The notes below the pieces were generated by a model. The model was not told the DNA's origin. It saw only the letters and a list, made by a program, of their open reading frames with translations, and did not search any database. Shown piece after piece: positions 10,596 through 28,697 of a stretch of DNA of 64,000 nucleotides. The stretch's first letter is position 1; each line of letters starts with the position of its first letter. Source of the stretch: an uncultured virus (IMG/VR IMGVR_UViG_3300042879_002288) (lineage: Duplodnaviria; Heunggongvirae; Uroviricota; Caudoviricetes; Crassvirales); the IMG/VR virus record IMGVR_UViG_3300042879_002288. One strand, written 5' to 3'. Position numbers and translations under genes: made by a program.

Positions 10596-10596
10596 A

Positions 10597-10922: not shown

Positions 10923-10931
10923 AGATGATTG

Positions 10932-10998: not shown

Positions 10999-11006
10999 AA
11001 GGCCAG

Positions 11007-11285: not shown

Positions 11286-11305
11286 ATCTTAGAGGGTTTC
11301 CGTTA

Positions 11306-12937: not shown

Positions 12938-14051
12938 TTACTTTGTTTTCGTAGTAAGAAAAGTTCTTTAGCAGCCTAGCTTGCTCTTCTGATGGAACTT
13001 CTTTGAATGTGTCAGACTCTATGAACTTCTTTGCATTCTCGTAGGCCAACTGCGGCTGTCCAACGTAGTACGCAGCCATGCAATACTCGTCCATAAACAT
13101 CCAATTTTTTATGGGAGCACTTACAAACAGAACGTCTATCTCTCTATAGTTCTGCGCTGCCATGTTCCCATATGTGAACGCAAGTACGTGTCTGTTGTTC
13201 AAACGAAGAAGCCTCATCAAATAGTATACTGCCTCAAGTCTATGGGGCCTGCACTCCCAGGCTAAACTATAAGCCTCTATAACTTCTTTGACAGGTCTTT
13301 TGGTTTCTTCAAGCAATAGAGCCACCTGAAGCAAAGAGATGTATACCTCTTCGTCCCATCCTTTCATGTTGGCTCTTTTTCTATAAGCCTTTATTGCTTT
13401 CTCTTTCTGCTGAGAATCCCTATAAGACTGAGCAAGATAGAAGGCGTATCTGGCGTTGTCTGGCTCTTTCTTAAGTGCCTTTTCAAGTATTTTAGCATCG
13501 TTTGCATACTTCTCTATAAGAGAGTTTGCTCGTTTTAGAGGAGATATGTCTGCCTTTATGTAACACTTGGGAATAACGAACCCCCTACGAGAGTTGGCCT
13601 CTTCGTCGTCAATATGCGGATATTCGTGAAGCACTCCCTTAAATACCCAGTCTTCATCTGACTTAAACAAAAAGTTTCTGGTGTACTCAAGGCCTCCAAA
13701 CTTCAGCAATATGCCATGTGATGATTTCGTTTTGTCAATTCCTTCAAATGGGTTTACACCTTCGTCTGGAATAAACAAGTCGTCAGCATCCATCATAAAT
13801 CTGTAGTCGCACTTTCCCAAAGCCAATCGCAAGGCCTCCGTCCTGTTGTGTGCAAAATCAACCCAAGGCCTCTCATGTACTTCTCCAGGGATTCCAAGTT
13901 CCTTGGTTACTTCTTTAATTTTTTGTATCGTGTTGTCTTTGGAACCCGTGTCTACGATGACGTAGTACGAAATAAAGGGAGCAACGCTCTTGATACATTC
14001 CTCTATGCAGGACTCTTCGTCCTTTACAATCATATTCAGGCATAGTTCCAT
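12912..14051 (-). CDS. GT2 glycosyltransferase with TPR repeats
   Basis: LNMIVKDE, VDTGSKD, DADD, GVLHEY, FYLAQSYRD. Confidence 0.88.
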   Translation of the reverse strand: MELCLNMIVKDEESCIEECIKSVAPFISYYVIVDTGSKDNTIQKIKEVTKELGIPGEVHERPWVDFAHNRTEALRLALGKCDYRFMMDADDLFIPDEGVNPFEGIDKTKSSHGILLKFGGLEYTRNFLFKSDEDWVFKGVLHEYPHIDDEEANSRRGFVIPKCYIKADISPLKRANSLIEKYANDAKILEKALKKEPDNARYAFYLAQSYRDSQQKEKAIKAYRKRANMKGWDEEVYISLLQVALLLEETKRPVKEVIEAYSLAWECRPHRLEAVYYLMRLLRLNNRHVLAFTYGNMAAQNYREIDVLFVSAPIKNWMFMDEYCMAAYYVGQPQLAYENAKKFIESDTFKEVPSEEQARLLKNFSYYENKVNETQKKDS

Positions 14052-14056
14052 TTAAT

Positions 14057-14995
14057 TCAGTTTAAAAACTTTTCTTCAAATCTACGCATTACATTGGCTG
14101 GAGAAAACTCTTCGACTATTTTTTTAAAATATCCTGGCTCATAATCAAATTTTTTCTTAGACAATATCTGTTTTAGGTAATCTTCATTTGAATACATAAG
14201 TCCAGTATGCTCAAGCATCAACCTGTGATTCTGGTCATGACCTCCAGTCCAGGCTACCACTGGCTTGTCCATAAATAAAAACTCGCTTATAGCTAATCCA
14301 AAAGACTCTCCCATAGCTCTACCGTGAATCATAGCATTGCATGTGTTTATGAACTTTACCTTGTACTCAAGGTCATAATTAGGCGGTAGGTGTATAATGT
14401 TTGGAAGGCTTTGACAAAACTTATCAGTGTTCATGAACAAAAAATAAGTGTCTGGGTTTTCAACCGCAGCATGATAAACCGTGCTTATGGTCATGGGCAG
14501 GTTGAATTGGCTTTCCCCACCATGTCTGCCCCACACAAAAGCGTCTCTTGGTATCCCAAGCTCTTCTCTTAAATCTCCTTCTGGATAAGGTAAGTCGACT
14601 ATGTGAGGAATGTAGTCGTCTGGCTTATTGTTTACTTCCGCCAGCCACTTTGATATATACATGTATCTGTCTCCATGCGGCTCGTTTATGTTGAAAACGA
14701 CATGAACAAGGTTTTTTACGTTATTCAACAAAAACTCTTCTTCGCCAGAACGACATAGATGTATGTACTCTGCACCAACAGATAGTGCGAAATCATCAAG
14801 CTCGTGTACCTCGTCAAAAAGAAAAACTTCAAATCTATCTGAGAACTTTTTTAGAGTGAACAGGTCCGAGTTTTTTCTTGACGCTATGTATGATTTATTG
14901 CCAAGAACTTCTTCATTTGCAACGGCATAATCATACATGGCAACTTCGCTTCCACGAACGCTAAGTTGGTTTGAATAAAATATGACTTTTTTCAT
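14057..14995 (-). CDS. GT-B (GT4-like) glycosyltransferase
   Basis: RGSEVAMYDYA, GRHGG, GESFGLAISEF. Confidence 0.8.
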   Translation of the reverse strand: MKKVIFYSNQLSVRGSEVAMYDYAVANEEVLGNKSYIASRKNSDLFTLKKFSDRFEVFLFDEVHELDDFALSVGAEYIHLCRSGEEEFLLNNVKNLVHVVFNINEPHGDRYMYISKWLAEVNNKPDDYIPHIVDLPYPEGDLREELGIPRDAFVWGRHGGESQFNLPMTISTVYHAAVENPDTYFLFMNTDKFCQSLPNIIHLPPNYDLEYKVKFINTCNAMIHGRAMGESFGLAISEFLFMDKPVVAWTGGHDQNHRLMLEHTGLMYSNEDYLKQILSKKKFDYEPGYFKKIVEEFSPANVMRRFEEKFLN

Positions 14996-15285
14996 TTACT
15001 AAATTTCTCTGCAAACCCAGCCCTGTAGTCCTTCTCCTCTTTCATCCCTCCAGTGGCCTGAAGTTCTTTCTTCATGTCGGTGAGTTCTTGGTACTTCTTT
15101 ATCAGGTCCTGACAGTCTACGGCAGTCTGCTTCACAGATTGTAGCTCTGCTTTTCTCCCTGCCCCAGAGGCTTCGGGGTCTACTGGGCGCCTGACCTCTT
15201 CAATCATGTTATTGATTGCCACCTCCATGCTCCCCATGAGCCTGTCTATGGCGTCTACAGTGTCAAAGCTCTTCTGTCTGGACAT
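14992..15285 (-). CDS. Helical phage protein, possible terminase small subunit
   Basis: 97-aa helical ORF ending GFAEKFSK; function is inferred from position only. Confidence 0.5.
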   Translation of the reverse strand: MSRQKSFDTVDAIDRLMGSMEVAINNMIEEVRRPVDPEASGAGRKAELQSVKQTAVDCQDLIKKYQELTDMKKELQATGGMKEEKDYRAGFAEKFSK

Positions 15286-15856
15286 ACATAAGGTCTTCTA
15301 CGCGGGTTCTGTAGTACTCTATGCCGTCAATCTTGAATCTGTAATCGTGGTTCTTCTTGAACCCAACCACGTCTCCCTTCTTCACGCCAATCTCGGATAA
15401 TTCGTCAGAATCAAACGCCACGACACCTTTGGTGACGGGAGGTTCATTAAACTCAACAACCTCTATAATTTCCGACATCTTGACCCTGGGCTCCTCGTAC
15501 GGCGCCAGCACGGACCACTTGTTAAGCGTGTGGAAGAGTCCCGTGTCCCTGCTCTTGTATCCTATGGCCTGATTATTCGTGGCTATAGATGGGCTAAACT
15601 TTACAAGGTAGTGGTCCTTTAAGTCGGCCAATACTTGTCCGTCGTTCATGACCACGAGGTGGTGGAAATAAAGGGTATCTCCAACCTGTACTGGGGTGTC
15701 ATACTTAAACGGAACCGATATTACTTCTCCCTCGTTTACTCGATACTCAAATTCGTTGAATCTCGTGTCCACGTACAACTCAAGTCCATTGGAAAGGGAG
15801 ATAGTGTCATTAACCCGCTTTGGCAGGTAGACGACAAAACTGTCGTAAGAACGCAT
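15263..15856 (-). CDS. GroES-like co-chaperonin (tandem-domain)
   Basis: GLELYVD, GEVISVP, VQVGDTLYF, and a second VKKGDVVGF unit. Confidence 0.7.
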   Translation of the reverse strand: MRSYDSFVVYLPKRVNDTISLSNGLELYVDTRFNEFEYRVNEGEVISVPFKYDTPVQVGDTLYFHHLVVMNDGQVLADLKDHYLVKFSPSIATNNQAIGYKSRDTGLFHTLNKWSVLAPYEEPRVKMSEIIEVVEFNEPPVTKGVVAFDSDELSEIGVKKGDVVGFKKNHDYRFKIDGIEYYRTRVEDLMYVQTEEL

Positions 15857-16014
15857 TACTTCTTTCTATAAGGGAAGATTATATTTAATTTTTCTTGTCT
15901 CTTCTTGCACCCACAGTCCTCTCCCGCCACCTTCTTGACCACGGATTCTATGCCCGTGGCTTTTGTAATCTTGGCTATGGTGTCGCCAAGGCCCTTGCTT
16001 TGTTCGTTTTCCAT
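15856..16014 (-). CDS. Small conserved-looking phage protein, 52 aa
   Basis: Hand-translated MENEQSKGLGDTIAKITKATGI...DCGCKKRQEKLN..FPY; start and stop overlap both neighbours. Confidence 0.75.
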   Translation of the reverse strand: MENEQSKGLGDTIAKITKATGIESVVKKVAGEDCGCKKRQEKLNIIFPYRKK

Positions 16015-16265
16015 CAGAAGTTCAAATCGTATTCAACTATACACGGCATGTCGTCTATGGTCTTCCAGAGTACCTGGGTTCCATCTGGTTCCTGCAAATA
16101 TATGTGGTACCTGGACTTGCTGTGGCGAGCCATCGTGGCATCATCGTACACTATAGCACTGATGGCGTTCTCTTTCATCTTCCCCACTGGCATCCCCACA
16201 AAGTATGCCATGGCGTTAGTTTTCGGCTCCTGACCGACAATAATCTTTCTTATAAGTCCTTCCAT
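16014..16265 (-). CDS. Hypothetical protein
   Basis: 83-aa ORF coupled to its neighbours. Confidence 0.75.
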   Translation of the reverse strand: MEGLIRKIIVGQEPKTNAMAYFVGMPVGKMKENAISAIVYDDATMARHSKSRYHIYLQEPDGTQVLWKTIDDMPCIVEYDLNF

Positions 16266-16266
16266 T

Positions 16267-16599
16267 TTAATTAAGTGATATAAATCCGTCGAACAGGTCG
16301 TCTGTCGCAGACAGTCTATTTTTTTTCTTAGATTCTTGGTTTTCTTTCTCGTACACCTCCACGGCGTGGGACATCATGTCGAACATCTCCTGCGAGTCTG
16401 CCACGTTAAATAGGTACATGGCCTCTATATTTGCCTGCTCATCCTCGTCGAAGTCACGTATGACTGAAACTATATTTACAAGGATTACGTCCTGTCTTAC
16501 GTCGAGGCTATCTGCAAGGTCGTCTATCTGAGACAGAAGATTCTTGGCCTTAGTCATAAACATATTAAGTTTAATATCACGCTCAAGTCTTCCTTTCAT
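16267..16599 (-). CDS. Hypothetical acidic protein
   Basis: 110-aa ORF preceded by TATTTTTG-N5. Confidence 0.7.
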   Translation of the reverse strand: MKGRLERDIKLNMFMTKAKNLLSQIDDLADSLDVRQDVILVNIVSVIRDFDEDEQANIEAMYLFNVADSQEMFDMMSHAVEVYEKENQESKKKNRLSATDDLFDGFISLN

Positions 16600-16624
16600 G
16601 GCTACAAAAATAAAGAAACAATTT

Positions 16625-17023
16625 ATGTTCCGTGAGTTCCTGTATAAAGATAAGGAAACGCGGGAGTCAAACTATCTGAAGTACCACAAGATGGTTAAGA
16701 AGTCTGTGGTAGACGAGCACGACATAAACAACTCTATCCTGGATTTTTTGGTGTGGGCATATGACATGGAGTTCTTCACCACCAGGCACGTTTGCAAGGA
16801 CCTGAAGATGCGTCAGAGCAACTACTATGAGCGGGTGATTATGATTGCCCTACGCAAGGGACTTATATATCATTACTTCAAGCGTATGGAAACCTTCAAC
16901 ACGTTTGAGGGCGCACAGTTTCGGGAGGACGGGGGACACAGCTACAGGGTTAGGTACGCCCTTACCCAGCGTGGGAGGATGATTGTAAAGAAGTTCTACG
17001 ACAGACTTCAGAAGGGAGAGTAG
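16625..17023 (+). CDS. Winged-helix (MarR-like) DNA-binding protein
   Basis: Helix-turn-helix segment, LRKGLI, YALTQRGR wing; start uncertain (alternative 16598). Confidence 0.6.
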   Translation: MFREFLYKDKETRESNYLKYHKMVKKSVVDEHDINNSILDFLVWAYDMEFFTTRHVCKDLKMRQSNYYERVIMIALRKGLIYHYFKRMETFNTFEGAQFREDGGHSYRVRYALTQRGRMIVKKFYDRLQKGE

Positions 17024-17466
17024 ACGGCACGTCCCTTGTGCATCTTGGCACGGAGAACCTGTCTCTTGTTGGAGCCTTCTTTGTACGACACGTGTACCCA
17101 GTCTGGGTTGTCCTTGTCCCCAAACTCCCAAATCAGTTGGTTGAAGTCGAGGTTGTTCTTGATGAAGTCAAAAATCTCTTTGTTTGTGACGCCACCAAAA
17201 ACATCTCCATCAAGGTCGAGCGCACGCCCCTCCATATGTTCTGACGTCTTGCTCCCTCCGATGGCTTTGTTGAGGGCGAGGGAGCGAAACCCTGACGTGA
17301 CTGCAATCGCCACATCGAAGTGGTCTCGTACGGGCTGAAATACATGCTGAGCTATAAGTTGTAGGTTACGTGTCTGTACCTGGTTGGGGACGTTCTTTAT
17401 CCCCAGCCTGGTGGCCACCTGTGATTTGGTGGCCTCGGCCAGCGTAAGATTCTTGCTCAGCTGCAT
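17008..17466 (-). CDS. Peptidase M15 endolysin
   Basis: SGFRS..LNKAIGG..TSEH..G.A.D...WVHVSY. Confidence 0.92.
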   Translation of the reverse strand: MQLSKNLTLAEATKSQVATRLGIKNVPNQVQTRNLQLIAQHVFQPVRDHFDVAIAVTSGFRSLALNKAIGGSKTSEHMEGRALDLDGDVFGGVTNKEIFDFIKNNLDFNQLIWEFGDKDNPDWVHVSYKEGSNKRQVLRAKMHKGRAVYSPF

Positions 17467-17467
17467 C

Positions 17468-17662
17468 TTACTTATTCTTACGCATGTATGCCTCGTAGTC
17501 GGATACCAGGAGCTTGTTGTCGTTCAGCTTCCCAGAAACTATGGGTCCGTACTCCTTGACGTTACGTCCTCTCTGGCTGGTGGCGAAGAGGATGAGTTCC
17601 TTCTCGTTGTACCGTGGCCTGGGGGCGGGGGCGCCAGCTGGCTTGTTCGTAATCGTCTTCAT
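17468..17662 (-). CDS. Small hypothetical protein
   Basis: MKTITNKPAG...; TATCTTTG box upstream; start uncertain. Confidence 0.5.
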   Translation of the reverse strand: MKTITNKPAGAPAPRPRYNEKELILFATSQRGRNVKEYGPIVSGKLNDNKLLVSDYEAYMRKNK

Positions 17663-17760
17663 AAGTGGATTTTGAGCAAAGATAAAAAATTTTTTCATCC
17701 GCACACAATACCGATTGTCGTCCTGCGTTTCGATATTAGATAAACCCAAAAACCTCTCTC

Positions 17761-18306
17761 ATGAAAACGACAGCTTTGTTTCTCTTGTCGGCCCTGGCGC
17801 TGACGTCTTTGGCCTCGGGCCCAGGTAAGGCACAGTCTAACGTGTCACCTGTGTCCTTCCGTATCATCCTCAACCACGACGGCAACCTGCTCTCAAGCTC
17901 TGCCAACGACTCTATCGTGTGGGAGTTGTGGGTGGAGACGCAGGGAATTCGCGTGTACTCTAACGAGACCTTCGAGGAGCGTGTGACACGCTACGGAATT
18001 ACTGACGAGTTTATCGAGAACTCCAAACAAGAGAACGCTCCGTTCATAGCACACAACCAGGGCAGCACCTACTTCACGTACACCACGAACAAGGCTGGGC
18101 TGCACCACATCGAGGCATACAACAAGTACACTGGCGAGCTGGTGGGGTACACGGTACTCATGCTCGACAGCTTCTTCACCCTCCCCCACTACAGCGGAAA
18201 GAAGACAGAGTGGCCGTTGATTCTGGAGCGGGGAGGCAAGCTCAACGCCTGGAGCCCATTCACGAATAACACCTACTCAGGACGATTTAAGCTGGGGGTG
18301 CAGTAA
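17761..18306 (+). CDS. Exported protein of unknown function
   Basis: Sec-type signal peptide MKTTALFLLSALALTSLA; own promoter-like motif and terminator. Confidence 0.7.
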   Translation: MKTTALFLLSALALTSLASGPGKAQSNVSPVSFRIILNHDGNLLSSSANDSIVWELWVETQGIRVYSNETFEERVTRYGITDEFIENSKQENAPFIAHNQGSTYFTYTTNKAGLHHIEAYNKYTGELVGYTVLMLDSFFTLPHYSGKKTEWPLILERGGKLNAWSPFTNNTYSGRFKLGVQ

Positions 18307-18340
18307 AAGAGAAGAGCGGCGATTGCCGCTCTTTTTCTTT
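18306..18340. terminator. Bidirectional intrinsic terminator
   Basis: AAGAGCGGC-GATT-GCCGCTCTT with A- and T-rich flanks between convergent genes. Confidence 0.85.
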
Positions 18341-19490
18341 AGAACTCAGCTCGTGCTGACTGCTTTTTCCTAAGTAGGTTCATGAGCGGGCTGTAGCTCA
18401 CGTCGTACAATTCTTTCCCAGCTTTGTCGTACCCACGGCTTATGACCCTGAAGGGGCTGCTTCTTTCTTCTGTGCGGTAGGCCTGCGCCCTCATGGCGTC
18501 GCTAATCTCTGTCTGAACAGGACGCTTCTTGGGGACCATGCCACCGTTATTGTAGCCTCTCTTCATGGCATTGACTTGCTCCATGGCTCTTCTTATACGC
18601 TCATCTGCCTGGGTGCTTCTGCTTTGAAGCTGTTGCTCTGCCTCCTTTCTCACCATGTCGGCGAAGTATCTGTTGTCCATGCCCCTGGACTCTGCTGGCT
18701 TCTCCTGCATCCCAGACCCTTCCATAAACGTCTGCACAAAGTCTCTGGCCTCTGGGGTGTCTCTGGTGATGTCTACACCAGCTGACTCTGCCTGTCTTAC
18801 CAGCTCTGGGATGTCGCCCTCCATAACCGTGCGTCCACCGACACCTGTCAGGTACTTAGGCAGTGGCTCGCTACGCACCAATCCAGCCTGTCTTACTTCC
18901 GCATTGGGGTCGTAGAACGACGCTCTGGGCATTATCGTCTCACCGAATACCAGGGCCCCATGGAAGTCGCCTATACGCTTGTCGGTCATGAGTCTCTTGG
19001 TGGTGGCAAGCTTCTCCTCGTCTGACATACCCTTGAGGATAGCGAAGTTGGGGTTGCCTGACTCTATGGCGCCGTTGATAGCTCTGAGTGCCACCCCAGG
19101 GTTGTCGTCTATGTAGGAGTTTACTTTCTGTGCCCAACGACCATACTGCTGGTCTATGTCTGCATTGGGGTCGCTGAGGTACTCTCTTCCGAACTCCGTG
19201 TTTCTAAGACGTTGCTTTGTCTCTTCATTGTAGTCGCTCAGCATTCCAGTGCTGGGGAGTTGGAAGTCATAGACATCTATCCTCCCCTCACCAACAGCCT
19301 GTATCATGTTAGGGTTTTCCCTGGTGTACTGGGCTGGCTCTATGGTCTGTACTGTCTCATAGTAGTTCCTGGTGTAGTCAGGTCCTGTGACACCACCACC
19401 CATCTGGTACATGGGCATCTTGCCCCCTTGGAGCATCTTGACGACCTTAGAGGCTATGTCCTTAGCCATATTTGATTTTTTGTACTTCAT
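18339..19490 (-). CDS. Probable internal virion protein
   Basis: LQGG/YQMGG/YNNGG motifs like the MYKSGG of 49402..50508. Confidence 0.55.
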   Translation of the reverse strand: MKYKKSNMAKDIASKVVKMLQGGKMPMYQMGGGVTGPDYTRNYYETVQTIEPAQYTRENPNMIQAVGEGRIDVYDFQLPSTGMLSDYNEETKQRLRNTEFGREYLSDPNADIDQQYGRWAQKVNSYIDDNPGVALRAINGAIESGNPNFAILKGMSDEEKLATTKRLMTDKRIGDFHGALVFGETIMPRASFYDPNAEVRQAGLVRSEPLPKYLTGVGGRTVMEGDIPELVRQAESAGVDITRDTPEARDFVQTFMEGSGMQEKPAESRGMDNRYFADMVRKEAEQQLQSRSTQADERIRRAMEQVNAMKRGYNNGGMVPKKRPVQTEISDAMRAQAYRTEERSSPFRVISRGYDKAGKELYDVSYSPLMNLLRKKQSARAEF

Positions 19491-19494
19491 GTCT

Positions 19495-19944
19495 TTATAC
19501 AGATGCTACGAATATCTCTGTTGCACACTGGCTACCTCCCGTGGCGCCGCCACGAATCAACGACACATCTGTGTACGAGGGCGTGGTGTTTGTACCTGTG
19601 GTAGCGTATAGGTCCTTGTTGGAGAGAATGAATGACTCACCACCGTCGAGCTTTACGTTGAACTCGCTCGTGGCTGTCTGCACGTTGAGTATAAGTGACG
19701 ATGGTGGGGAGGCTGTGTCTATATTGGAGACACGCAGGTACCTCATGTTGGACGGGGTGAACACAGAGCCCCCTGGTGTGGTATCAAAGGATACTAAGTC
19801 TGTCATGCCAAGAGCTACTGATTGTACCGTGACGGCTCTCTGCATCACGTCATTGACACCAGTTATGGACAGTGTGTTTACAGAGCCCCTGTTGGAGCCA
19901 TTGAGGTACACCTCCTCTGTTATGCTTACTGTAAGTGTGGCCAT
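19495..19944 (-). CDS. Probable structural protein
   Basis: Beta-rich, S/T-rich 149 aa. Confidence 0.65.
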   Translation of the reverse strand: MATLTVSITEEVYLNGSNRGSVNTLSITGVNDVMQRAVTVQSVALGMTDLVSFDTTPGGSVFTPSNMRYLRVSNIDTASPPSSLILNVQTATSEFNVKLDGGESFILSNKDLYATTGTNTTPSYTDVSLIRGGATGGSQCATEIFVASV

Positions 19945-20078
19945 TACTTGTTTTTCTTGGCTTTAGATATTTCTATGGCTATAAGCTGTTTCTGAGCCCT
20001 GTCCTTGGTGGGGTGTGTCCCCAACAGCTTACCCTTGCTGCTGCGTACCTGGTACTGGCTACCCTTCTTTATAATCAT
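19944..20078 (-). CDS. Small basic protein, 44 aa
   Basis: Hand-translated MIIKKGSQYQVRSSKGKLLGTHPTK...QLIAIEISK; TAATG coupling; TATATTTG-N4-ATG. Confidence 0.75.
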   Translation of the reverse strand: MIIKKGSQYQVRSSKGKLLGTHPTKDRAQKQLIAIEISKAKKNK

Positions 20079-20202
20079 ACGGCAAATATAACACAACAAA
20101 ATACACAGGCCTTTGAGGCAAAAGGAAACACATACATGCCCATACCTATAGGAGACTGTTGTCTGTCTGCTTTATCTATCTTTTTTTTTTGGGTATAGCT
20201 AT

Positions 20203-20333
20203 CCCTTCATACAGACTAATCACAGGCGACCTCCACACTCACTGACTCACTTACTCAATGTTTGCCCAGTGGGGGCCCTCAAGCGCCCCCCAAAAGGCAA
20301 ACGACTGCCTGTTACTGTATCTCCCTGAAGGGC
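20203..20333 (-). ncRNA. Candidate structured non-coding RNA
   Basis: Five nested helices; predicted 5' end lies 4 nt after a TAACTTTG box. Confidence 0.6.
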
Positions 20334-20337
20334 GTAG

Positions 20338-20368
20338 CAAAGTTACAGACTTTTTTGGCAAAAGTCAA
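20338..20368 (-). promoter_or_regulatory. Bacteroidota housekeeping promoter with palindromic spacer
   Basis: TTG-N20-TAACTTTG; spacer holds GACTTTT-N5-AAAAGTC. Confidence 0.7.
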
Positions 20369-20897
20369 GTGGCGAAATGGGTTGTAAACCACAGTTTTAG
20401 GAATTTTGTGAATGGCAAGTTTATGAAATTAACACTTGTTAACAATTAGCAGGGCTCATGGGGGTCAATTAACTGCCTCATGTACCACAGTAACCAAGGA
20501 GCGTATAATTCGACGAGGGCAAAAAATTATAAGATTTACTCTCGTTGGGTGAACGAGGGCAAAAATTACCGAGTTATATAGGGGTAGGGGATTATATATA
20601 ATTACGGACGTACGCGGGTGGGGTCCGGAACGCAAATGCGCGACCCCGTGGGTACGCACGCACGCGCAGTCGCGGCATCTTTTTACCTTTTGGATTTCCC
20701 GGCATTGCTAATGGTAACAAGACCGCAGATTGTGTTAGTATTTGTGTTTGGACGCAATACAAATTGCAAGTAAATCGATGAGGGAGATGCAATTGCAAAT
20801 GTAACTCGCTGATTGCTAATAGCAACAAGGCAGGATTGTCCCCTCCCCATCTCTTCACAACCTTTAACATACCTCACATACGAGAACACGACATGGC

Positions 20898-21003
20898 TGC
20901 GTTGCGCGTGCCCGTGTGCGCGTAGCGCGTATCGCGTGTGCATGCGTAGCGCATGTGCGCGATGCGTGCGCATGTCGCGCGGTGCCTATCCTGCGAGATG
21001 CGT
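20898..21003. repeat. Alternating purine-pyrimidine (CG/TG/CA) tract
   Basis: gcgcgtg..gtgtgcgcgt..gcgcgt..cgcgtgtgcatgcgt..gcgcatgtgcgcg..tgcgtgcgcatgt. Confidence 0.8.
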
Positions 21004-21203
21004 CTGTGGCGCTGTGGGCGCTGTGGAATGCCTGCAAACAGCGAGCAGGTCTGTTAACGGATGTTAAAATCCACTTTGCAACCATCTGGTTTTCAGCCAG
21101 TTGAAAAAAACTTTCATGGGGCACATACCAAAGGTCCATGCCTTGACGTCATATCAGCAGACGGGGAGGACGAGCCAAACCGCACACCACACACACAGAC
21201 AAC

Positions 21204-21545
21204 ATGTCTAACAAACTCCACACCAACTACGTCAAGCTCACGGGACGTGAACTGACCATTCTCGACGAGATGACCAACTTCATGGGTCAGCGCATCCTGC
21301 TCGTAGAGCACCCCATCCATGGGGATGAGGCACCCGTCATCGCAATCTGCCGCGAGCACATGATGAAGGTAGGTCCGCTCGAATACGTCTACGGAGCGGC
21401 GGCGAACACGGATTTCTTCGACACCGACGACATGTACGAAGGCAGTGACTACGAACCTCTCTTCATCGGCGACAAACTAACCTACCGCTACGTTATTGAC
21501 AACTACGACAAGCTCCACATCTCCCCATTAGGCGGCGAACTCTGA
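21204..21545 (+). CDS. Early hypothetical protein
   Basis: First ORF of the + strand block; (AC)n leader. Confidence 0.75.
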   Translation: MSNKLHTNYVKLTGRELTILDEMTNFMGQRILLVEHPIHGDEAPVIAICREHMMKVGPLEYVYGAAANTDFFDTDDMYEGSDYEPLFIGDKLTYRYVIDNYDKLHISPLGGEL

Positions 21546-21903
21546 ACCCATCATCGGGGAGCGGGAACCGCTCGCTCCCCACCATCACCCTCAAACACAC
21601 ACACACCATGTCCACCACATCAATCTCCCGCCGCTCTCCCGTCATGCTCACATTCAGTGACGGAACCTACATGTTGTCCATTCGGAAGCACATCCAATTT
21701 GGCCACTACATCGTGGAACTGCGGGACCCCGATAACATAGCGATTCACGAGCAAAGGTTCGAATCGATGGCCGATGCATGCGGGTTCGCGGAACGTTTGG
21801 GAGGCGGAACATTCCAAGTAATCTGCAACATCCAACTCTGAACCCATCACGGGGAGCGGGAACCGCTCGCTCCCCTTCATCACCCATCAAACACACACCC
21901 ATG
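21538..21903 (+). repeat. Two ~70-bp direct repeats (21538-21610, 21834-21903) containing a GC hairpin
   Basis: AACTCTGAACCCATCA(T)CGGGGAGCGGGAACCGCTCGCTCCCC..CATCACCC(A)TCAAACACACAC..ATG. Confidence 0.9.
21608..21841 (+). CDS. Early hypothetical protein
   Basis: 77 aa bounded by the two repeats. Confidence 0.7.
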   Translation: MSTTSISRRSPVMLTFSDGTYMLSIRKHIQFGHYIVELRDPDNIAIHEQRFESMADACGFAERLGGGTFQVICNIQL

Positions 21904-21999
21904 CTCTACACAATGGAATCCTACGCATCGCTCATGTTCCCAACAATGCTGTGCATCTCTGCTGTCTTGTTGTTAATCTATGAGCGCAAACAACAATAA
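21901..21999 (+). CDS. 32-aa hydrophobic peptide
   Basis: MLYTMESYASLMFPTMLCISAVLLLIYERKQQ after an AAACACACAC leader. Confidence 0.55.
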   Translation: MLYTMESYASLMFPTMLCISAVLLLIYERKQQ

Positions 22000-22040
22000 T
22001 CCAAACATCTCTCACGTTAACCCATCAAACACACACAGCT

Positions 22041-22220
22041 ATGAATAGAGTGGAAATCGTCGGCACGAAGTTCAAGGTATTGATTGACTTCTTACCAATT
22101 ACGAATCAGTACTACGTTTCTGTCATCAGCGTCAAGCACGACCTGCTCATCGGCACAACGCAGTACGGCACCCATGAGGAGGCGTACGCATTCGTGGGAA
22201 ACGTCATGGACATCCAATAA
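22041..22220 (+). CDS. Early hypothetical protein, 59 aa
   Basis: Hand-translated MNRVEIVGTKFKVLIDFLP...NVMDIQ after motif and leader. Confidence 0.65.
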   Translation: MNRVEIVGTKFKVLIDFLPITNQYYVSVISVKHDLLIGTTQYGTHEEAYAFVGNVMDIQ

Positions 22221-22251
22221 ACCATCATTACCCATCAAACACACAGAAAAC

Positions 22252-22551
22252 ATGTCATCATACATCTCAACCATCTACGTGTTCGACACGCTGTCCATCG
22301 CAGGATGCTACCTTCCTGCTCTCATCAACGGAGATGCATCGGGCATCGACGACAACGAATTCGCTGAACTCGACAAGTTCCTGATGGAACTACGCAACAG
22401 AATTCGTGAGCGCCACGATGCCGACGAGGAGATTAGCTATGACCTTGTGGTGACAAGTGACGAGTCATTCATAGGCATGTGCGAAGTTAGTGGGCTGTAC
22501 TCTGACTGCCACGATGTGAATGTGATTGCACATGTATCTCGTCGGTCATAA
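22252..22551 (+). CDS. Early hypothetical protein
   Basis: YLPALINGDASG; start reassigned to the ATG after the leader. Confidence 0.7.
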   Translation: MSSYISTIYVFDTLSIAGCYLPALINGDASGIDDNEFAELDKFLMELRNRIRERHDADEEISYDLVVTSDESFIGMCEVSGLYSDCHDVNVIAHVSRRS

Positions 22552-22615
22552 AAAAGTTGCATCAGCACACAATAAACAGATTCCTCATAACGTTAACCTA
22601 TCAAACACACACACC

Positions 22616-22765
22616 ATGAACAATCAAGAGATGCTGTTTTACGCACACAATTTCAAGGGATTTGCGGTTTCCGTTCGAGCAAGGAACGAAAGAGATGCAA
22701 GAGAATTCTTCCGCAATCACTTTGCAGTGAAGACATTGAGAGGATTCGAAATTTGGAGAGGATAA
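22616..22765 (+). CDS. Early hypothetical protein, 49 aa
   Basis: Start reassigned after motif and leader. Confidence 0.65.
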   Translation: MNNQEMLFYAHNFKGFAVSVRARNERDAREFFRNHFAVKTLRGFEIWRG

Positions 22766-22815
22766 CACACAATAAACAGAAATCACTACACGTTAATCTA
22801 TCAAACACACACACA

Positions 22816-23073
22816 ATGGAAACTAACATTCAAAAATTTCTCGCCGAGAACTTCGATGCAGTTCAGGTGAAGCGGTCAGTGCAGGACGATGAATACGTCA
22901 TCCTATGCACCTTGCCAACTCTGCTCGATGTAGCTAAAGTTCAGTTCGGGAGCGAGGAGTACCACGAATTGTTCGATGCCATGCAGGAACTATTCGAATG
23001 CCCAGTATTTGTCAGCGACTACGACGATGTGGTAGCCGTAAGTGAAGATTTCTTTGAAAATTACTACCAATAA
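22816..23073 (+). CDS. Early acidic hypothetical protein
   Basis: Start reassigned after motif and leader. Confidence 0.7.
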   Translation: METNIQKFLAENFDAVQVKRSVQDDEYVILCTLPTLLDVAKVQFGSEEYHELFDAMQELFECPVFVSDYDDVVAVSEDFFENYYQ

Positions 23074-23122
23074 GCACAATAAACATCAATCACCACACGT
23101 TAACCTATTAAACACACAGACC

Positions 23123-23365
23123 ATGAAAGTTCAAGATTTGATTTGCTACCTTGACCTGAATCCGAAATACGAATGGGTTGAGATGGAATTCTTTGGCCGA
23201 AGAGTACTTGACTGGGCATTCCTCGGGAAAGAAGGAGCAATGGATTTCTTGCATGGCATTGAACCACAACGCCACGAGTCCATGTCTTTCCACATCGTCG
23301 GAACAAAGGATGGAGACGTATTAAGAGTTGATGTGGTAGAGAAAAAAAACAACGTCACACAATAA
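23123..23365 (+). CDS. Early hypothetical protein
   Basis: Start reassigned after motif and leader. Confidence 0.7.
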   Translation: MKVQDLICYLDLNPKYEWVEMEFFGRRVLDWAFLGKEGAMDFLHGIEPQRHESMSFHIVGTKDGDVLRVDVVEKKNNVTQ

Positions 23366-23407
23366 ACAGATTCCCTCTCACGTTTAACATTCAAACACAC
23401 ACACACA

Positions 23408-23710
23408 ATGAACACGATTCTTTTCGAAACAGAAGCAAACAAGCGTGCGTCAGACGCACGATTGGCCAAGTCAAAGAAGCAGGTTGTTGACTACATGGTC
23501 ATCCTCGTAGAGGAACTGGAGTCCTTGAACGAAGAACTGCTACGAATCAAGGCATTGCAACAGATGAATGCCATGTGCGTCTTGAGCGGCAGTGAGTCAG
23601 CGCCAACAGAAGAAGTTGAGTCCCTTGATAAACGGGAGCAAGAAATTCGCATGGAGATTACGAACAAGAAGAATTACCTCATCGTCCTCATCGAATCTCA
23701 AGCACAATGA
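23408..23710 (+). CDS. Early coiled-coil protein
   Basis: 100-aa ORF after motif and leader. Confidence 0.7.
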   Translation: MNTILFETEANKRASDARLAKSKKQVVDYMVILVEELESLNEELLRIKALQQMNAMCVLSGSESAPTEEVESLDKREQEIRMEITNKKNYLIVLIESQAQ

Positions 23711-23874
23711 TTAACGCACTCTTGACCTTCAGGAACTCTGCCGGACGCACCTTCGGTAGCCCAAAGAACTTCTCTGACCAAACGCACATCGATAACTACA
23801 TCAACTTCATGATGCGTAAAGGACACAAGTTCGTGGACATCTTCTACGCAGACGACAACGATGCACCACAATAA
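23707..23874 (+). CDS. Early hypothetical protein, 55 aa
   Basis: Hand-translated MINALLTFRNSAGRTFGSPK...DDNDAPQ; ATGA overlap. Confidence 0.65.
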   Translation: MINALLTFRNSAGRTFGSPKNFSDQTHIDNYINFMMRKGHKFVDIFYADDNDAPQ

Positions 23875-23914
23875 ACGCACCCAGTCAAACGTTAAACAAT
23901 AAACACACACAGCT

Positions 23915-24151
23915 ATGATTACGACATCAAATTCAAAGGTCTCTGTTTCGGACATCATCCGTTACGAGGAAGGGGACATGACCGTACGGGAGATGGTATA
24001 CTTCTTCTCCCTGCTCATCAGGTCAGGCATGTTGAACAGGATGCAGGGTTCATACGGACGTATGGCATCGCAGATGCTCCAGTACGGATTGCTCGATGCG
24101 AGCGGTCAGGTGAACCGCGATAACCTCGAAGAGTTTATCAGCAGATTTTAA
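23915..24151 (+). CDS. Early hypothetical protein
   Basis: IIRYEEG...LIRSG...QGSYGRMA. Confidence 0.75.
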   Translation: MITTSNSKVSVSDIIRYEEGDMTVREMVYFFSLLIRSGMLNRMQGSYGRMASQMLQYGLLDASGQVNRDNLEEFISRF

Positions 24152-24180
24152 CATCTGTTAACACAACAAACCCACACACA

Positions 24181-24630
24181 ATGTCAGTTCAATCAATCTC
24201 CAACCTGATGCCGAGCAAGGCATACTTGGACACCATTCGTAACGGCGGCATCTCCGTCAACCACAGAGGAGAGACACCCCCATCCACGGGATTCATGGTA
24301 GGCGGTGCTGACGAGGACAGCGAGAGCCACATCGTACAATTCACGGATTTCTATGAGTTCTCCCGTGTGTTCGAACAACTGCTCACAAAGTTGAGCAACC
24401 TGCCGGAACCGGAGCGCGAATGCATGTACGTTGGCACGTGGTTAAACAACAACTTTGTTGACCAATCACGTCCATCGCCGCTCACTATCATCGAGTTGGA
24501 GTTGTCTATGCACATCTCCTCACTTGAGAAAGCCATGAAGCTTGGCAAGGCGTTCAATCAGTTGTATATCTATGACCTTGCGGAAGGCAAGAGCATCAAG
24601 GTAGAAAAAGATGTGCCTCAAGCACAATAA
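24181..24630 (+). CDS. Hypothetical protein, possible SAM-lyase-like fold
   Basis: GG.S..TGFMV...YVGTW...ELS...A..LG..FNQ..IYDL. Confidence 0.6.
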   Translation: MSVQSISNLMPSKAYLDTIRNGGISVNHRGETPPSTGFMVGGADEDSESHIVQFTDFYEFSRVFEQLLTKLSNLPEPERECMYVGTWLNNNFVDQSRPSPLTIIELELSMHISSLEKAMKLGKAFNQLYIYDLAEGKSIKVEKDVPQAQ

Positions 24631-24670
24631 ACCATTCAGGTAACCCGTTAATTAAGAAACACACACAGCC

Positions 24671-25198
24671 ATGAAAACAATTCAAATCGGTTCACAAGTG
24701 TGGACTACAAAGAACCTGCGAGTATTCAAGTTTCGCAATGGAGACCCCATCCCGATTATTCAGGACAACGAGGAGTGGAGCAAACTCGAATCACCTGCCA
24801 TGTGCATCAACCCTGACAACGGAGAATGTTACTACAACTGGTACGCAGTCAACGACTCGCGATGTCTTGCACCTATAGGATTCCATGTGCCTTCAAATGA
24901 CGAGTGGCAACAGCTTGTTGACTACTGCGGTGGTAATGAGAAAGCGGGCAACTTGTTGAAATCGACGAAAAAGTGGGATGGCGCAGGAGCCTCCAAAGGA
25001 TTCAATGCTATCCCTTCAGGCTTCCGAGCCCACTACAACGGGAACTTCTACGACCAAGGCAACAACGGGCATTGGTGGTCTTACTCCCCGAGTGGAGCAG
25101 ACGCTTGGTATCGCTGGCTGTGCTTTGAAGACCCGTATGTCTTCCGTGACTACTCCAACCAACGAAACGGCTTCTCTGTACGCTTAATCAAAGATTAA
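24671..25198 (+). CDS. Fibrobacter succinogenes major paralogous (CLec-fold) domain protein
   Basis: IQIGSQVW..KNL, YNWYAV, P.GFHVPS..EW, WWS, GFSVRLIKD. Confidence 0.9.
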   Translation: MKTIQIGSQVWTTKNLRVFKFRNGDPIPIIQDNEEWSKLESPAMCINPDNGECYYNWYAVNDSRCLAPIGFHVPSNDEWQQLVDYCGGNEKAGNLLKSTKKWDGAGASKGFNAIPSGFRAHYNGNFYDQGNNGHWWSYSPSGADAWYRWLCFEDPYVFRDYSNQRNGFSVRLIKD

Positions 25199-25209
25199 AA
25201 CACCCAACT

Positions 25210-25749
25210 ATGAAAACTATTCAAATTGGTTCACAAGTGTGGACAAGAAAAAACCTCCGAGTGTTCAAGTTCCGTAACGGAGACCCTATCCCAATCATTC
25301 AGGATTCCGACGAGTGGGCATTATCTCAAGAAGCCGCTATGTGTATCAACCCTTACAATGGAGAATGCTATTACAACTGGCATGCTGTCGCTGACAAACG
25401 AGGTCTTGCCCCCAAGGGATTCCACGTTCCGTCAGATATGGAGTGGTATACGTTAATCAAAGTATACGATGGTTTTGATGTCGCGGCTAAATTGTTGAAG
25501 TCCCCTAAAAAGTGGGATGGCGCGGGAGTCCCCAAAGGATTTAATGTCAAAGGATTCGATGCCATTCCAAGTGGATACCGCACACACAATGGCGACATCA
25601 TCACTCGCGAATACAGCGGGTTTTGGTGGACTTCCACTCCATGTGGTTCAGAAGCATTTTGCTACTACATGTTCTCTGGGGTCTCGATTGCACACCGAGA
25701 TAGCGGCACCTTTCGAAACGGCTTCTCTGTCCGCTTAATCAAAGATTAA
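25210..25749 (+). CDS. Second Fib_succ_major domain protein (tandem paralogue)
   Basis: Same motifs as 24671..25198. Confidence 0.9.
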   Translation: MKTIQIGSQVWTRKNLRVFKFRNGDPIPIIQDSDEWALSQEAAMCINPYNGECYYNWHAVADKRGLAPKGFHVPSDMEWYTLIKVYDGFDVAAKLLKSPKKWDGAGVPKGFNVKGFDAIPSGYRTHNGDIITREYSGFWWTSTPCGSEAFCYYMFSGVSIAHRDSGTFRNGFSVRLIKD

Positions 25750-25760
25750 AATACACAGCC

Positions 25761-25988
25761 ATGAAAATCTACGTTCAAGCAAACAGCAAGAAAGAAGTGA
25801 ACAACTGGCTCGCTTCAGGAATCCACATCTACGGATATAACTATTCGATGTTCGAGGATGCAGGATGGCACGACATCTCAAACCTGAACGATGGGGATGT
25901 AGTGGCCATCTTCTCCAAGACGATGAACGGCTCCCCAGTCCCAAAGTCATGGGGTTCCTATGATGCCAAGAAGAACAGATTAAAGTGA
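25761..25988 (+). CDS. Hypothetical protein
   Basis: 75 aa; ACACAGCC-ATG leader. Confidence 0.7.
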   Translation: MKIYVQANSKKEVNNWLASGIHIYGYNYSMFEDAGWHDISNLNDGDVVAIFSKTMNGSPVPKSWGSYDAKKNRLK

Positions 25989-26042
25989 TGGGCGCACAAT
26001 AAAAGACACACGACACACGTTACATAATAAACACACACAGCA

Positions 26043-26282
26043 ATGTCACAAGAAAAGAAATACCCCAACGGACTGCGAGAGTACCTTGAGACACTCGTCA
26101 TGATGTCAGTTGAACTGGAGGCAAGAGACCTGCCCATGCATCTCATCAACTACATAGACCATGCTATCGATTGGTCGGAAGAGTTTGAGAAGATGTACAG
26201 CGGCAGAAACATGAGGATATGGGATGGTGATTGGTTGGATGCAATCCAAGAATTTGTAGATAAAAAGATTTCAGAATCATGA
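26043..26282 (+). CDS. Hypothetical protein
   Basis: 79 aa after motif and leader. Confidence 0.7.
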   Translation: MSQEKKYPNGLREYLETLVMMSVELEARDLPMHLINYIDHAIDWSEEFEKMYSGRNMRIWDGDWLDAIQEFVDKKISES

Positions 26283-26452
26283 ACGAACTGCCTGAAGATG
26301 AGTTGATTGAGTTGGCCGAAGGCCCCAACAACGACATAGCTAACGCCGCTATGAATGAGCTACGCAGACGATTCGATGCATCATACGGATGGTGCCCCGA
26401 ACTTGACTACGCAGTTGTCAAACGAGAAGAGTGTGAGAAACTAACCCAATAA
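26279..26452 (+). CDS. Hypothetical protein, 57 aa
   Basis: Hand-translated MNELPEDELIELAEG...CEKLTQ; ATGA overlap. Confidence 0.6.
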   Translation: MNELPEDELIELAEGPNNDIANAAMNELRRRFDASYGWCPELDYAVVKREECEKLTQ

Positions 26453-26462
26453 TAAAAAAGAA

Positions 26463-26699
26463 ATGAAGCAGACAGCAGTAGAGTGGTTATGGGACGCTTT
26501 AGACAATATTCTTGAGTTATACCCCAGCGAATGGGAAAAAATAAGTAAGGTAGTAGAGCAGGCCAAAGAGATGGAGAAGGGGCAGATTGAACAGGCATTT
26601 AATGAAGGAAGAGAAGAAAGAGATTACAATGGTAGTATCTGGGAATGTAAAAGTGGATTAGAGTACTTCAACCAAACCTTTAACACTGAAGAGAAATGA
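26463..26699 (+). CDS. MKQTAVEWL-type small phage protein
   Basis: MKQTAVEWL...EQAKEMEK.QI...YFNQTF. Confidence 0.75.
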   Translation: MKQTAVEWLWDALDNILELYPSEWEKISKVVEQAKEMEKGQIEQAFNEGREERDYNGSIWECKSGLEYFNQTFNTEEK

Positions 26700-26914
26700 A
26701 AACCCCAGTCGAACAACTGATTGAGAACATTCGGCAACGTGCCACACTTCTGAAAGAAGGAAATAAAACAGAACGACACAATAGTAGGATTCTGTTTAAC
26801 GTTGCAAGTACAGCAAGACGGTTCCTCGAAATCGAACGAGAGTTCATCGAACAGGTCCGAACGGGTATAGATGCGCCCGAAAAGGATGAAACTATACCCG
26901 ATAGCGCCCAGTAA
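26696..26914 (+). CDS. Hypothetical protein
   Basis: ATGA-coupled ORF. Confidence 0.65.
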   Translation: MKTPVEQLIENIRQRATLLKEGNKTERHNSRILFNVASTARRFLEIEREFIEQVRTGIDAPEKDETIPDSAQ

Positions 26915-26941
26915 TAATCAATCGCCCCTAAAATTCACGTC

Positions 26942-27425: not shown

Positions 27426-27451
27426 ATTAAACAAGTTACTATATTCGCCAC

Positions 27452-28674: not shown

Positions 28675-28697
28675 TCACAATTCAATCCAATAGAGTT

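What the first reader, a model, noticed from the sequence alone, without database searches (positions are those of the whole stretch)
20203..20368. Candidate novel ~130-nt structured ncRNA with its own promoter and a repeat-bearing bulge
Seen: nested inverted repeats 20203-09/20326-32, 20209-14/20315-20, 20222-27/20307-12, 20260-66/20296-302 and 20270-76/20285-92 form a rod. A ~30-nt one-sided bulge carries three UGAGU repeats (UUGAGUA-AGUGAGUC-AGUGAGUG). A TTG-N20-TAACTTTG promoter ends 4 nt before the first stem base, the same spacing seen before late start codons, and its spacer is palindromic (possible operator). No credible ORF covers it. Inference: a regulated phage RNA such as a protein sponge, 6S-like RNAP decoy, replication primer or packaging RNA.
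Basis: partly seen in the sequence, partly recalled or inferred. Interest (0 to 1): 0.82.

Follow-up and report, generated by a model that had tools for sequence, protein, structure and literature searches.

The report
Conserved structured RNA in crAss-like phage
A crAss-like phage carries a gene-sized stretch of about 130 bases that makes a folded RNA from its own promoter; related phages keep the fold through matching mutations, but what the RNA does is still unknown.

Summary
On the minus strand, a Bacteroidota-type promoter (TTG ... TAACTTTG, 20368-20338) places the predicted start at G20333, one base before the first helix. The next ~131-142 nt fold into a closed structure with no credible ORF and no Rfam match.

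I found the element in 6 distinct sequences from about 10 uncultured-phage contigs. They fall into two types, of 141-142 nt and 120 nt. Between the types, 11 base pairs in helices P1, P3, P4 and P6 changed on both sides and still pair. All 22 changed stem positions (of 40) changed as pairs, and the apical hairpin is invariant. G-U pairs and the promoter point to the minus strand.

- The "bulge" contains a small conserved hairpin.
- Only one UGAGU is conserved.
- The palindromic spacer coincides with the known AT-rich promoter motifs.
- No terminator follows the element.

Function is inferred only. My best guess is a discrete protein-binding small RNA. The rivals are a cis-acting 5' leader of a three-gene operon and a replication primer. 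Expression is untested. This is a new RNA family of narrow distribution.

The parts
20366..20368 (-). -33-like TTG of promoter P1
   Evidence: Sequence; invariant in all 6 variants
20346..20365 (-). 20-nt spacer with a T-run (about -31..-27) and an A-run (about -23..-18) forming the palindrome GACTTTT/AAAAGTC
   Evidence: Arms CTTTT/AAAAG are kept in type B. Their positions match the AT-rich -28/-18 motifs of F. johnsoniae promoters
20338..20345 (-). -7 box TAACTTTG (type B: TAACTTCG)
   Evidence: Consensus TAnnTTTG with G at -5 (PMC6847099 passages)
20333..20333 (-). Predicted transcription start (G, +1)
   Evidence: Inferred from the 4-5 nt spacing rule; not measured
20203..20332 (-). Structured core, RNA positions 2-131, closed by helix P1 (20332-20326 with 20209-20203)
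   Evidence: MFE. P1 has 2 pairs changed on both sides between the types
20209..20320 (-). P2, found in type A only: 20320-20315 (AUACAG) with 20214-20209 (CUGUAU)
   Evidence: Sequence. Used in the MFE of L034. Absent in type B
20222..20312 (-). P3: 20312-20307 (ACAGGC) with 20227-20222 (GCCUGU); type B has AGCUUC/GAAGCU
   Evidence: 4 of 6 pairs changed on both sides. The covariance-model alignment did not reproduce it for type B
20260..20302 (-). P4: 20302-20295 with 20267-20260, including the invariant U.G pair
   Evidence: 3-4 pairs changed on both sides
20271..20291 (-). P5 apical hairpin GGGGGGCGCUUGAGGGCCCCC, invariant except G to U at one mismatch position in L034
20241..20259 (-). 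P6 small hairpin inside the 'bulge', carrying the only conserved UGAGU
   Evidence: MFE of both types. 2 pairs changed on both sides, 1 broken in L026
20228..20240 (-). Single-stranded purine-rich linker (GAGUGUGGAGGUC); 18 nt in type B
20192..20202 (-). Conserved 3' tail (A/G)UAGCU(A/G)U..; conservation between the types ends here
   Evidence: Alignments A1, A4
20181..20190 (-). A10 run after the element (7-10 A in type A, absent in type B); no U-tract terminator
20083..20090 (-). -7 box TATATTTG of second promoter P2, 4 nt before the ATG of the 44-aa gene (leaderless)
19944..20078 (-). 44-aa basic protein gene (phrog_3684); its TAA overlaps the ATG of the 149-aa gene
   Evidence: E 4.3e-11
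18312..18333 (-). Strong intrinsic terminator ending the operon [RNA]-44aa-149aa-383aa
   Evidence: 9 pairs, 6 G-C, then a CTCTTTT tail

Best explanation
This is the gene, or the 5'-terminal domain, of a previously undescribed structured RNA of a small clade of environmental crAss-like phages of Bacteroidota. Host RNA polymerase with its primary sigma factor would start at G20333 from promoter P1 and make an RNA whose first ~131 nt fold into a closed structure. In that structure P1 pairs the 5' end with a segment about 125 nt downstream. P3 leads to a junction carrying a long arm (P4 plus the sequence-invariant apical hairpin P5), a small hairpin (P6, with the conserved UGAGU) and a purine-rich single strand. 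I think it most likely acts as a discrete small RNA, released by processing or by non-canonical termination just after the conserved UAGCU tail. It would work by binding a protein of the phage or host: the invariant P5 hairpin would be the specific recognition site, and the P6 loop and linker would provide further contacts. Shown: the sequence features, conservation, covariation and strand bias. Inferred: transcription, the 3' end, and action in trans through a protein. My odds: about 0.8 that it is a real conserved minus-strand RNA structure, and about 0.4 for the trans-acting protein-binding mechanism. The confidence given below is for the mechanism.
For: Structure: the window folds with z -3.43. 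Each type, folded on its own, gives the same order of helices P1, P3, P4, P5, P6. On homologous helix positions, 160 of 162 cells are standard pairs. Eleven pairs changed on both sides between the types, and 22 of 40 variable-stem positions changed, all as pairs. Slid controls gave 67-91 of 162. On the covariance-model alignment A6, 97.6% of cells are paired and 7 pairs changed on both sides. Covariation there is 0.243 against 0.107 +/- 0.021 in shuffles (0 of 500) and at most 0.060 when slid. RNAalifold gives -43.5 against column shuffles of -9.95 +/- 2.8 (0 of 300). Strand: the U.G pair in P4 is invariant in 6 of 6 sequences. Single changes create U.G in L004, L026 and L034. Consensus energy is -43.5 for the sense strand against -33.5 for the antisense. 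Promoter: it is invariant from about -60 to +10 across the types, and its spacing puts +1 at the base before P1. Independent module: the promoter plus element is constant while the next gene differs (44 aa, 85 aa, or a ~330-aa insert). Each of those genes has its own TAnnTTTG box, set 4-5 nt before the ATG of the 44-aa and 85-aa genes (leaderless) and about 27 nt before that of the inserted gene, and the distance to it varies from about 75 to 255 nt. Conservation between the types stops about 11 nt after P1. Sequence-specific recognition: 21-24 nt of P5 are identical between types whose flanks are about 65% identical. There are no terminators inside the short operon for a cis antiterminator to act on. 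No ORF, no Rfam family.
Against: No expression data of any kind. No intrinsic terminator follows the element, although the phage uses canonical ones elsewhere (18333-18312; the hairpin near 33975-34010 seen). P1 transcripts may therefore simply run into the 44-aa gene. Only two sequence types exist, so all the covariation comes from one evolutionary split. The helices of type B were placed by folding and by hand. The unguided MAFFT alignment recovers only P1 and P5 (z -3.2), and its antisense scores as well (z -4.7). The covariance model deleted most of P3 in type B. Type B alone folds no better than shuffles (z -0.74). The type B -7 box (TAACTTCG) departs from a nearly invariant T. L026 breaks two pairs. 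No partner protein is identified, and Pfam finds no RNA-binding or RNA-processing protein in the window.
Confidence: 0.4

Rival explanations
1. A cis-acting 5' leader. P1 is the main promoter of the operon 44aa-149aa-383aa, and the structured domain stays on the mRNA. There it acts as a 5'-end stabiliser, an RNase processing site (as at the head of the T7 early operon; recalled), or an RNA that modifies the transcribing polymerase (like the put RNA of HK022; recalled).
For: No terminator lies between the element and the next gene. The element always has the orientation of the downstream genes and sits at the head of the module. It starts at +1 with only one unpaired 5' base, as 5' stabilisers do.
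Against: The next gene has its own promoter, leaderless for the 44-aa and 85-aa genes, and both that gene and its distance vary while the element is constant. There is no terminator inside the operon for an antiterminator to overcome, and beyond the terminal one lies a convergent plus-strand gene. A 24-nt invariant hairpin and a closed 5'/3' helix are more than a stabiliser needs.
Confidence: 0.27
2. An origin-related element. The P1 transcript forms a persistent hybrid or primer for DNA replication (as ColE1 RNA II or the T4 R-loop origins do; recalled), or the same sequence acts as a single-stranded DNA hairpin.
For: It lies in a 1.26-kb conserved ORF-free control region between divergent modules, next to the replication genes. 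The RNA strand is G- and purine-rich, and in type A it is followed by an A7-10/T-run. Contig ends of relatives cluster 300-800 bp away.
Against: The A-run is absent in type B. Cumulative GC skew shows no turning point here. The G.U-creating changes and the precise promoter geometry fit an RNA better than DNA. Nothing marks an origin directly.
Confidence: 0.1
3. A 6S-like decoy of host RNA polymerase holoenzyme.
For: It is rod-like with paired ends and a large internal loop. The phage depends on host polymerase for middle and late genes in related phages (PMC8375218 passages).
Against: No match to any Rfam family, 6S models included, at E up to 10. The RNA is 120-142 nt rather than about 180. 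The internal loop is 3-7 nt on the 5' side against 32-35 nt, partly folded, on the 3' side, so it is not an open-promoter mimic.
Confidence: 0.06
4. No function of its own: a promoter-proximal inverted-repeat region kept by descent, with the apparent covariation arising from how the type B helices were chosen.
For: There is only one A/B contrast. Type B has z -0.74. The unguided alignment gives weak support.
Against: All 22 changed stem positions are paired changes and none is single. The covariance-model alignment, which was not made by hand, also gives 7 double changes with 0 of 500 shuffles reaching the score. A 24-nt block is invariant amid about 65% identity.
Confidence: 0.07

Closest known systems
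put RNA of phage HK022 (recalled; not tested against a model)
   Same: A phage-encoded structured RNA just downstream of a promoter at the head of an operon, with no protein-coding role.
   Different: put consists of two stem-loops of about 70 nt that act in cis to suppress terminators. Here there is a ~131-nt closed multi-helix structure starting at +1, and no internal terminators in the operon.
6S RNA, including the Bacteroidota and Flavobacteria forms in Rfam
   Same: Paired 5' and 3' ends, an elongated shape, a large internal loop, and a possible link to host polymerase.
   Different: No Rfam match. It is shorter, and its loop is strongly one-sided and partly folded.
phi29 packaging RNA (pRNA)
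   Same: A 120-170-nt phage RNA with a 5'/3' closing helix and a junction, encoded near a possible genome end.
   Different: No Rfam match. No pair of complementary loops was identified. crAss-like phages are expected to package with a terminase (recalled; none was identified in this window), and no phi29-type packaging ATPase or terminal protein was seen in the Pfam scans.
Lambda PR' leader ('6S' transcript) with Q antitermination (recalled)
   Same: A strong promoter followed by a non-coding structured leader ahead of late genes.
   Different: The lambda leader ends in a canonical terminator; none is present here.
ColE1 RNA II primer (recalled)
   Same: A promoter-driven, structured, G-rich RNA followed by an A-run in type A.
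   Different: The A-run is not conserved in type B, and there is no evidence of an origin.

Membership tests
Any Rfam 15 family | Score at or above the family's gathering threshold | tested here: not met
   Whole window: 5 tRNAs only. For 19900-20800 at E up to 10, only a 13.3-bit chance hit on the other strand. For the type B locus, only 20.5 bits against a threshold of 34, on the antisense strand.
6S RNA | Match to the 6S covariance models | tested here: not met
   No 6S-family hit at E up to 10.
6S RNA | A central bubble with both strands open, mimicking an open promoter, in a ~180-nt rod | tested here: not met
   The internal loop is 3-7 nt against 32-35 nt with a hairpin, and the length is 120-142 nt.
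6S RNA | Binds sigma-holoenzyme and templates product RNA | not testable with these tools
   Needs biochemistry.
phi29-type pRNA | Match to the Rfam pRNA model; two loops that pair between molecules | tested here: not met
   No Rfam hit. No complementary loop pair was seen in the folds.
HK022 put RNA | Promoter-proximal position in the same transcript as the operon | tested here: met
   The element starts at the predicted +1 of P1, and no terminator precedes the next gene.
HK022 put RNA | A two-stem-loop architecture with terminators downstream to be suppressed | tested here: not met
   Five to six helices form a closed structure. There is no minus-strand terminator between 20190 and 18340.
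Retron msr-msd | A closing inverted repeat plus an adjacent reverse transcriptase gene | tested here: not met
   The closing helix is present, but no reverse transcriptase domain was found in the 53 window ORFs scanned against Pfam.
Bacteroidota sigma-A promoter (TTTG / TAnnTTTG) | A -7 box TAHHTTTG with G at -5 and the start 4-5 nt downstream | tested here: met
   TAACTTTG + CTAC + G20333; rule from PMC6847099 passages. Type B has TAACTTCG, one departure.
Free-standing small-RNA gene | Its own intrinsic terminator | tested here: not met
   No hairpin plus U-tract follows the element in either type.

The most novel reading that the evidence does not exclude
The element is the first noncoding-RNA effector of a crAss-like phage. 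It would be a trans-acting RNA whose invariant hairpin and UGAGU hairpin capture a host protein, for example the Bacteroidota RNA polymerase holoenzyme or a defence or RNA-decay factor, and so reprogram the infected cell. It would belong to no known RNA family.
Probability: 0.2. Interest if true: 0.8.

Novelty: new member of a known kind. Interest (0 to 1): 0.5.

Why it matters
crAss-like phages are among the most abundant phages of Bacteroidota, yet their regulation is known only in outline. Passages of PMC8375218 say that their middle and late genes probably depend on host polymerase. My literature searches (listings only, plus passages of three papers) turned up no described noncoding RNA of this phage order, and Rfam holds no match. 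A promoter-defined, covariation-supported RNA with a 24-nt invariant hairpin gives a concrete, testable handle on RNA-based control in these phages. It also adds a candidate family for RNA databases. Its narrow distribution (6 variants, about 10 contigs) and unknown function limit its weight for now.

Tried and rejected
- Close cultured relatives: blastn of 19000-22000 against phage records found no match. The nearest held record, G001, is the same phage at 100% identity.
- More homologues:
  - The exact hairpin in viral contigs gave 4 contigs.
  - The degenerate hairpin in metagenome contigs gave 16 loci, of which 7 were real. The other 9 were an unrelated GGGGGGGGCTTGAGCCCCCCC element.
  - The same pattern in genome contigs gave 0.
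  - The promoter pattern added only L040, a chance match inside a coding region.
  - A conserved upstream block added 3 contigs that end before the element.
- Distant relatives: relatives of the 149-aa protein (L018-L022, 30-36% identity) and of the 113-aa protein (L008, L009) carry the gene in mid-operon. They gave no hit to model R1 at E up to 10.
- Antisense-target idea: the 13-nt similarity of the bulge to 21216-21228 is not conserved, because type B has a different first gene there. The duplex scan of the window gave no standout (one search failed on a script error).
- Neighbouring proteins: no PDB sequence match. The Atlas returned only hypothetical phage families. The AlphaFold model of the 149-aa protein had pLDDT 37 and was unusable, so no fold search was run.
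- Reverse transcriptase or retron link (prompted by PMC9226505): no such domain in the window.
- Earlier notes of this scan: none.
- No complex prediction was run, because no partner is known.

Full report
**Context**

The window is a crAss-like phage. Its 2018-aa and 333-aa proteins carry the crassvirus muzzle domains, and its 3065-aa protein carries LPD38. It also encodes a primase/helicase, ribonucleotide reductase, ERF recombinase, ThyX and an M15 endolysin.

The closest cultured relatives of the primase infect Flavobacteriia. The best is Maribacter phage Panino at 33%, and 33 of the 57 matching records are Flavobacterium phages.

Minus-strand genes fill 1-19944 and plus-strand genes fill 21204-36684. 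The finding therefore lies in a 1.26-kb ORF-free divergent region, 19945-21203.

**The observation**

All five inverted-repeat pairs, the three UGAGU copies, the promoter and its palindromic spacer are at the stated coordinates.

| Strand folded | MFE (kcal/mol) | z | Shuffles as good |
|---|---|---|---|
| Minus, 20336..20195 | -56.1 | -3.43 | 1 of 200 |
| Plus, same interval | -41.8 | -2.72 | 0 of 200 |

Rfam gives only five tRNAs in the window at gathering scores. Around the element it gives nothing credible at E up to 10.

Only short ORFs of 36, 41 and 63 aa overlap the element. Only the 63-aa ORF was scanned, and it has no PHROG hit. The 22-nt length difference between the two sequence types argues against coding.

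**The promoter**

Passages of Baez et al. 2019 (PMC6847099) put the nearly invariant bases of the Flavobacterium -7 box at T-12, A-11, T-8, T-7, T-6 and G-5. The start lies 4-5 nt after the box, and AT-rich motifs sit near -18 and -28.

Applied here, TAACTTTG (20345-20338) followed by CTAC predicts a start at G20333, one base before helix P1. The T-run and A-run of the "palindromic spacer" fall at about -28 and -20. The palindrome can therefore be explained as ordinary promoter architecture rather than an operator.

In the window, 6 of the 38 TAnnTTTG motifs are followed 3-6 nt later by the ATG of an ORF of at least 40 aa. Seven scrambled motifs gave 0-3 of 30-47.

**Relatives**

Flanking-protein and DNA-pattern searches found the element in about ten uncultured contigs. 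They reduce to six distinct sequences:

| Type | Length | Sequences |
|---|---|---|
| A | 141-142 nt | window; L004 = L028; L034 |
| B | 120 nt | L005 = L023 = L027; L024 = L031; L026 |

The flanks of the two types are about 65% identical. The promoter region from about -60 and the apical hairpin with its borders (TTTGGGGGGCGCTTGAGGGCCCCC, one base, CTGG) are identical. Conservation stops about 11 nt after P1, at a shared (A/G)UAGCU(A/G)U tail.

Several searches added nothing further:
- A model built from type A alone finds type B at E 6e-10 to 4e-9. It finds nothing in seven loci of more distant relatives or elsewhere in the window.
- In those distant relatives the neighbouring gene sits in mid-operon.
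- The genome collection gave 0 hits.

**Structure and covariation**

Folded independently, both types give the same series of helices:
- P1 closes the structure.
- P3 follows. P2 exists only in type A.
- P4 and P5 form the long arm.
- A 13-18-nt purine-rich single strand leads back to P3.

| Measure | Result |
|---|---|
| Standard pairs on homologous helix positions | 160 of 162 cells |
| Pairs changed on both sides between types | 11 (P1 2, P3 4, P4 3, P6 2) |
| Variable-stem positions changed | 22 of 40, every one together with its partner |
| Slid controls | 67-91 of 162 |
| Model alignment A6: cells paired | 97.6% |
| Model alignment A6: pairs changed on both sides | 7 |
| Model alignment A6: covariation score | 0.243 against 0.107 +/- 0.021 in shuffles (0 of 500); at most 0.060 when slid |
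| RNAalifold on the structure-guided alignment | -43.5 against -9.95 +/- 2.8 for column shuffles (0 of 300) |

Alignment A6 was not made by hand but is fitted to the model.

**Results against the structure**

- Type B alone folds no better than shuffles (z -0.74, 34 of 200).
- The unguided MAFFT alignment recovers only P1 and P5 (z -3.2), and its reverse complement scores as well (z -4.7).
- The model alignment dropped most of P3 in type B.
- L026 breaks two pairs.
- All the covariation comes from a single A/B split.

**Strand**

- The U.G pair in P4 is present in 6 of 6 sequences.
- Single changes in L004, L026 and L034 create U.G pairs, which would be A.C mismatches on the other strand.
- The sense consensus is 10 kcal/mol more stable than the antisense.
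- The promoter points the same way.

**What is not conserved**

The three UGAGU repeats are not conserved. L004 and L034 have two, and type B shares one, which lies in the loop and 3' strand of P6. The spacer palindrome shrinks to 5-bp arms in type B. The A10 run after the element is 7-10 A in type A and absent in type B.

**Surroundings**

The element is followed by a second promoter, P2 (TATATTTG 20090-20083, with ATG at 20078). P2 gives a leaderless 44-aa basic protein, phrog_3684 at E 4.3e-11. That gene's stop overlaps the start of the 149-aa gene. A 383-aa gene and a strong terminator at 18333-18312 follow.

No minus-strand terminator lies between the element and that point.

In relatives the first gene after the element differs. 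It is the 44-aa gene, an 85-aa gene, or a ~330-aa insertion followed by the 44-aa gene. Each has its own TAnnTTTG box, set 4-5 nt before the ATG of the 44-aa and 85-aa genes and about 27 nt before that of the inserted gene, 75-255 nt from the element. The promoter plus element therefore behaves as a module of the conserved control region, not as the leader of one particular gene.

**Mechanism**

Transcription from P1 by host polymerase is inferred. So is everything downstream of it.

I favour a discrete, protein-binding small RNA (0.4). The reasons are:
- the 5'/3' closing helix;
- the sharp 3' boundary of conservation;
- a 24-nt invariant hairpin, which implies sequence-specific recognition;
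- independence from the downstream gene;
- the lack of anything for a cis antiterminator to act on.

The main rival is a cis-acting leader, acting as a stabiliser or processing site (0.27). It is favoured by the absence of a terminator after the element.

The remaining readings are:
- a replication-primer or origin role (0.1), which fits the location and the G-rich RNA followed by an A-run but is weakened because the A-run is not conserved;
- a 6S-like decoy (0.06), which fails the two testable 6S features;
- no function (0.07), which is hard to square with 22 of 22 changed stem positions being compensated.

**Comparison and novelty**

The resemblances to HK022 put, 6S RNA, phi29 pRNA, the lambda PR' leader and ColE1 RNA II are recalled analogies. 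Where a defining feature could be tested it was mostly not met (see the membership table).

The literature searches found no noncoding RNA described for this phage order. I saw listings only, and passages of PMC8375218, PMC6847099 and PMC9226505. Supplements were not opened.

I rate the element as a new RNA family within the known kind "phage-encoded structured small RNA". It is real in sequence and structure, unproven in expression, and narrow in distribution.

Noticed in passing
window 20083-20128 and 20338-20368: The segment CTTTTGCC...CTGT of promoter P1 is repeated at 80% identity upstream of promoter P2 (20105-20124 against 20345-20364). It looks like a duplicated promoter piece.
   Followed up: partly
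window about 20610-20700 and 20920-21150: Contigs of relatives coming from both sides end inside this GC-rich repeat region: L004, L006, L023, L026, L027, L034, L045, L046 and L047. It could be a genome terminus or terminal repeat, or simply an assembly-breaking repeat.
   Followed up: partly
window 20429-20444 and 21052-21067: Paired TGTTAAC motifs lie upstream of P1 and upstream of the first plus-strand gene, and are also present in type B. They may be binding sites of one regulator for both divergent promoters.
   Followed up: no
window 21040-21170: A block of about 150 nt upstream of the first plus-strand gene is the best-conserved DNA of the intergenic region between the two types. It may hold the promoter of that gene module.
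   Followed up: no
window 20513-20525 and 20553-20565: An exact 13-nt direct repeat, ACGAGGGCAAAAA, spaced 40 nt apart. It was seen in the window and in L028, the one other type A contig aligned across this region, but not in type B.
   Followed up: no
window 10446-10922: A cluster of five tRNA genes on the minus strand.
   Followed up: no
window 33966-34017: A GC-rich hairpin (AAGCGGGGA...TCCCCGCTT) flanked by TAnnTTTG boxes on both strands. It looks like a bidirectional terminator between converging or adjacent units.
   Followed up: no
L025, L029, L030, L033, L035-L038 (and L032): The degenerate hairpin pattern also hit unrelated metagenome contigs. Eight of the nine share the repeated element TTTGGGGGGGGCTTGAGCCCCCCC with similar flanks, so they probably carry a mobile or repeat element of another organism. 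L032 matches only a different variant of the pattern.
   Followed up: no
L004 922-1944: Type A relatives L004 and L028 carry an extra gene of about 330 aa, rich in basic and low-complexity sequence, inserted between the RNA element and the 44-aa gene.
   Followed up: no
window 24671-25749: Two adjacent genes with the Fibrobacter succinogenes major domain (PF09603, E 2.5e-33 and 9.8e-30) lie in the plus-strand module.
   Followed up: no
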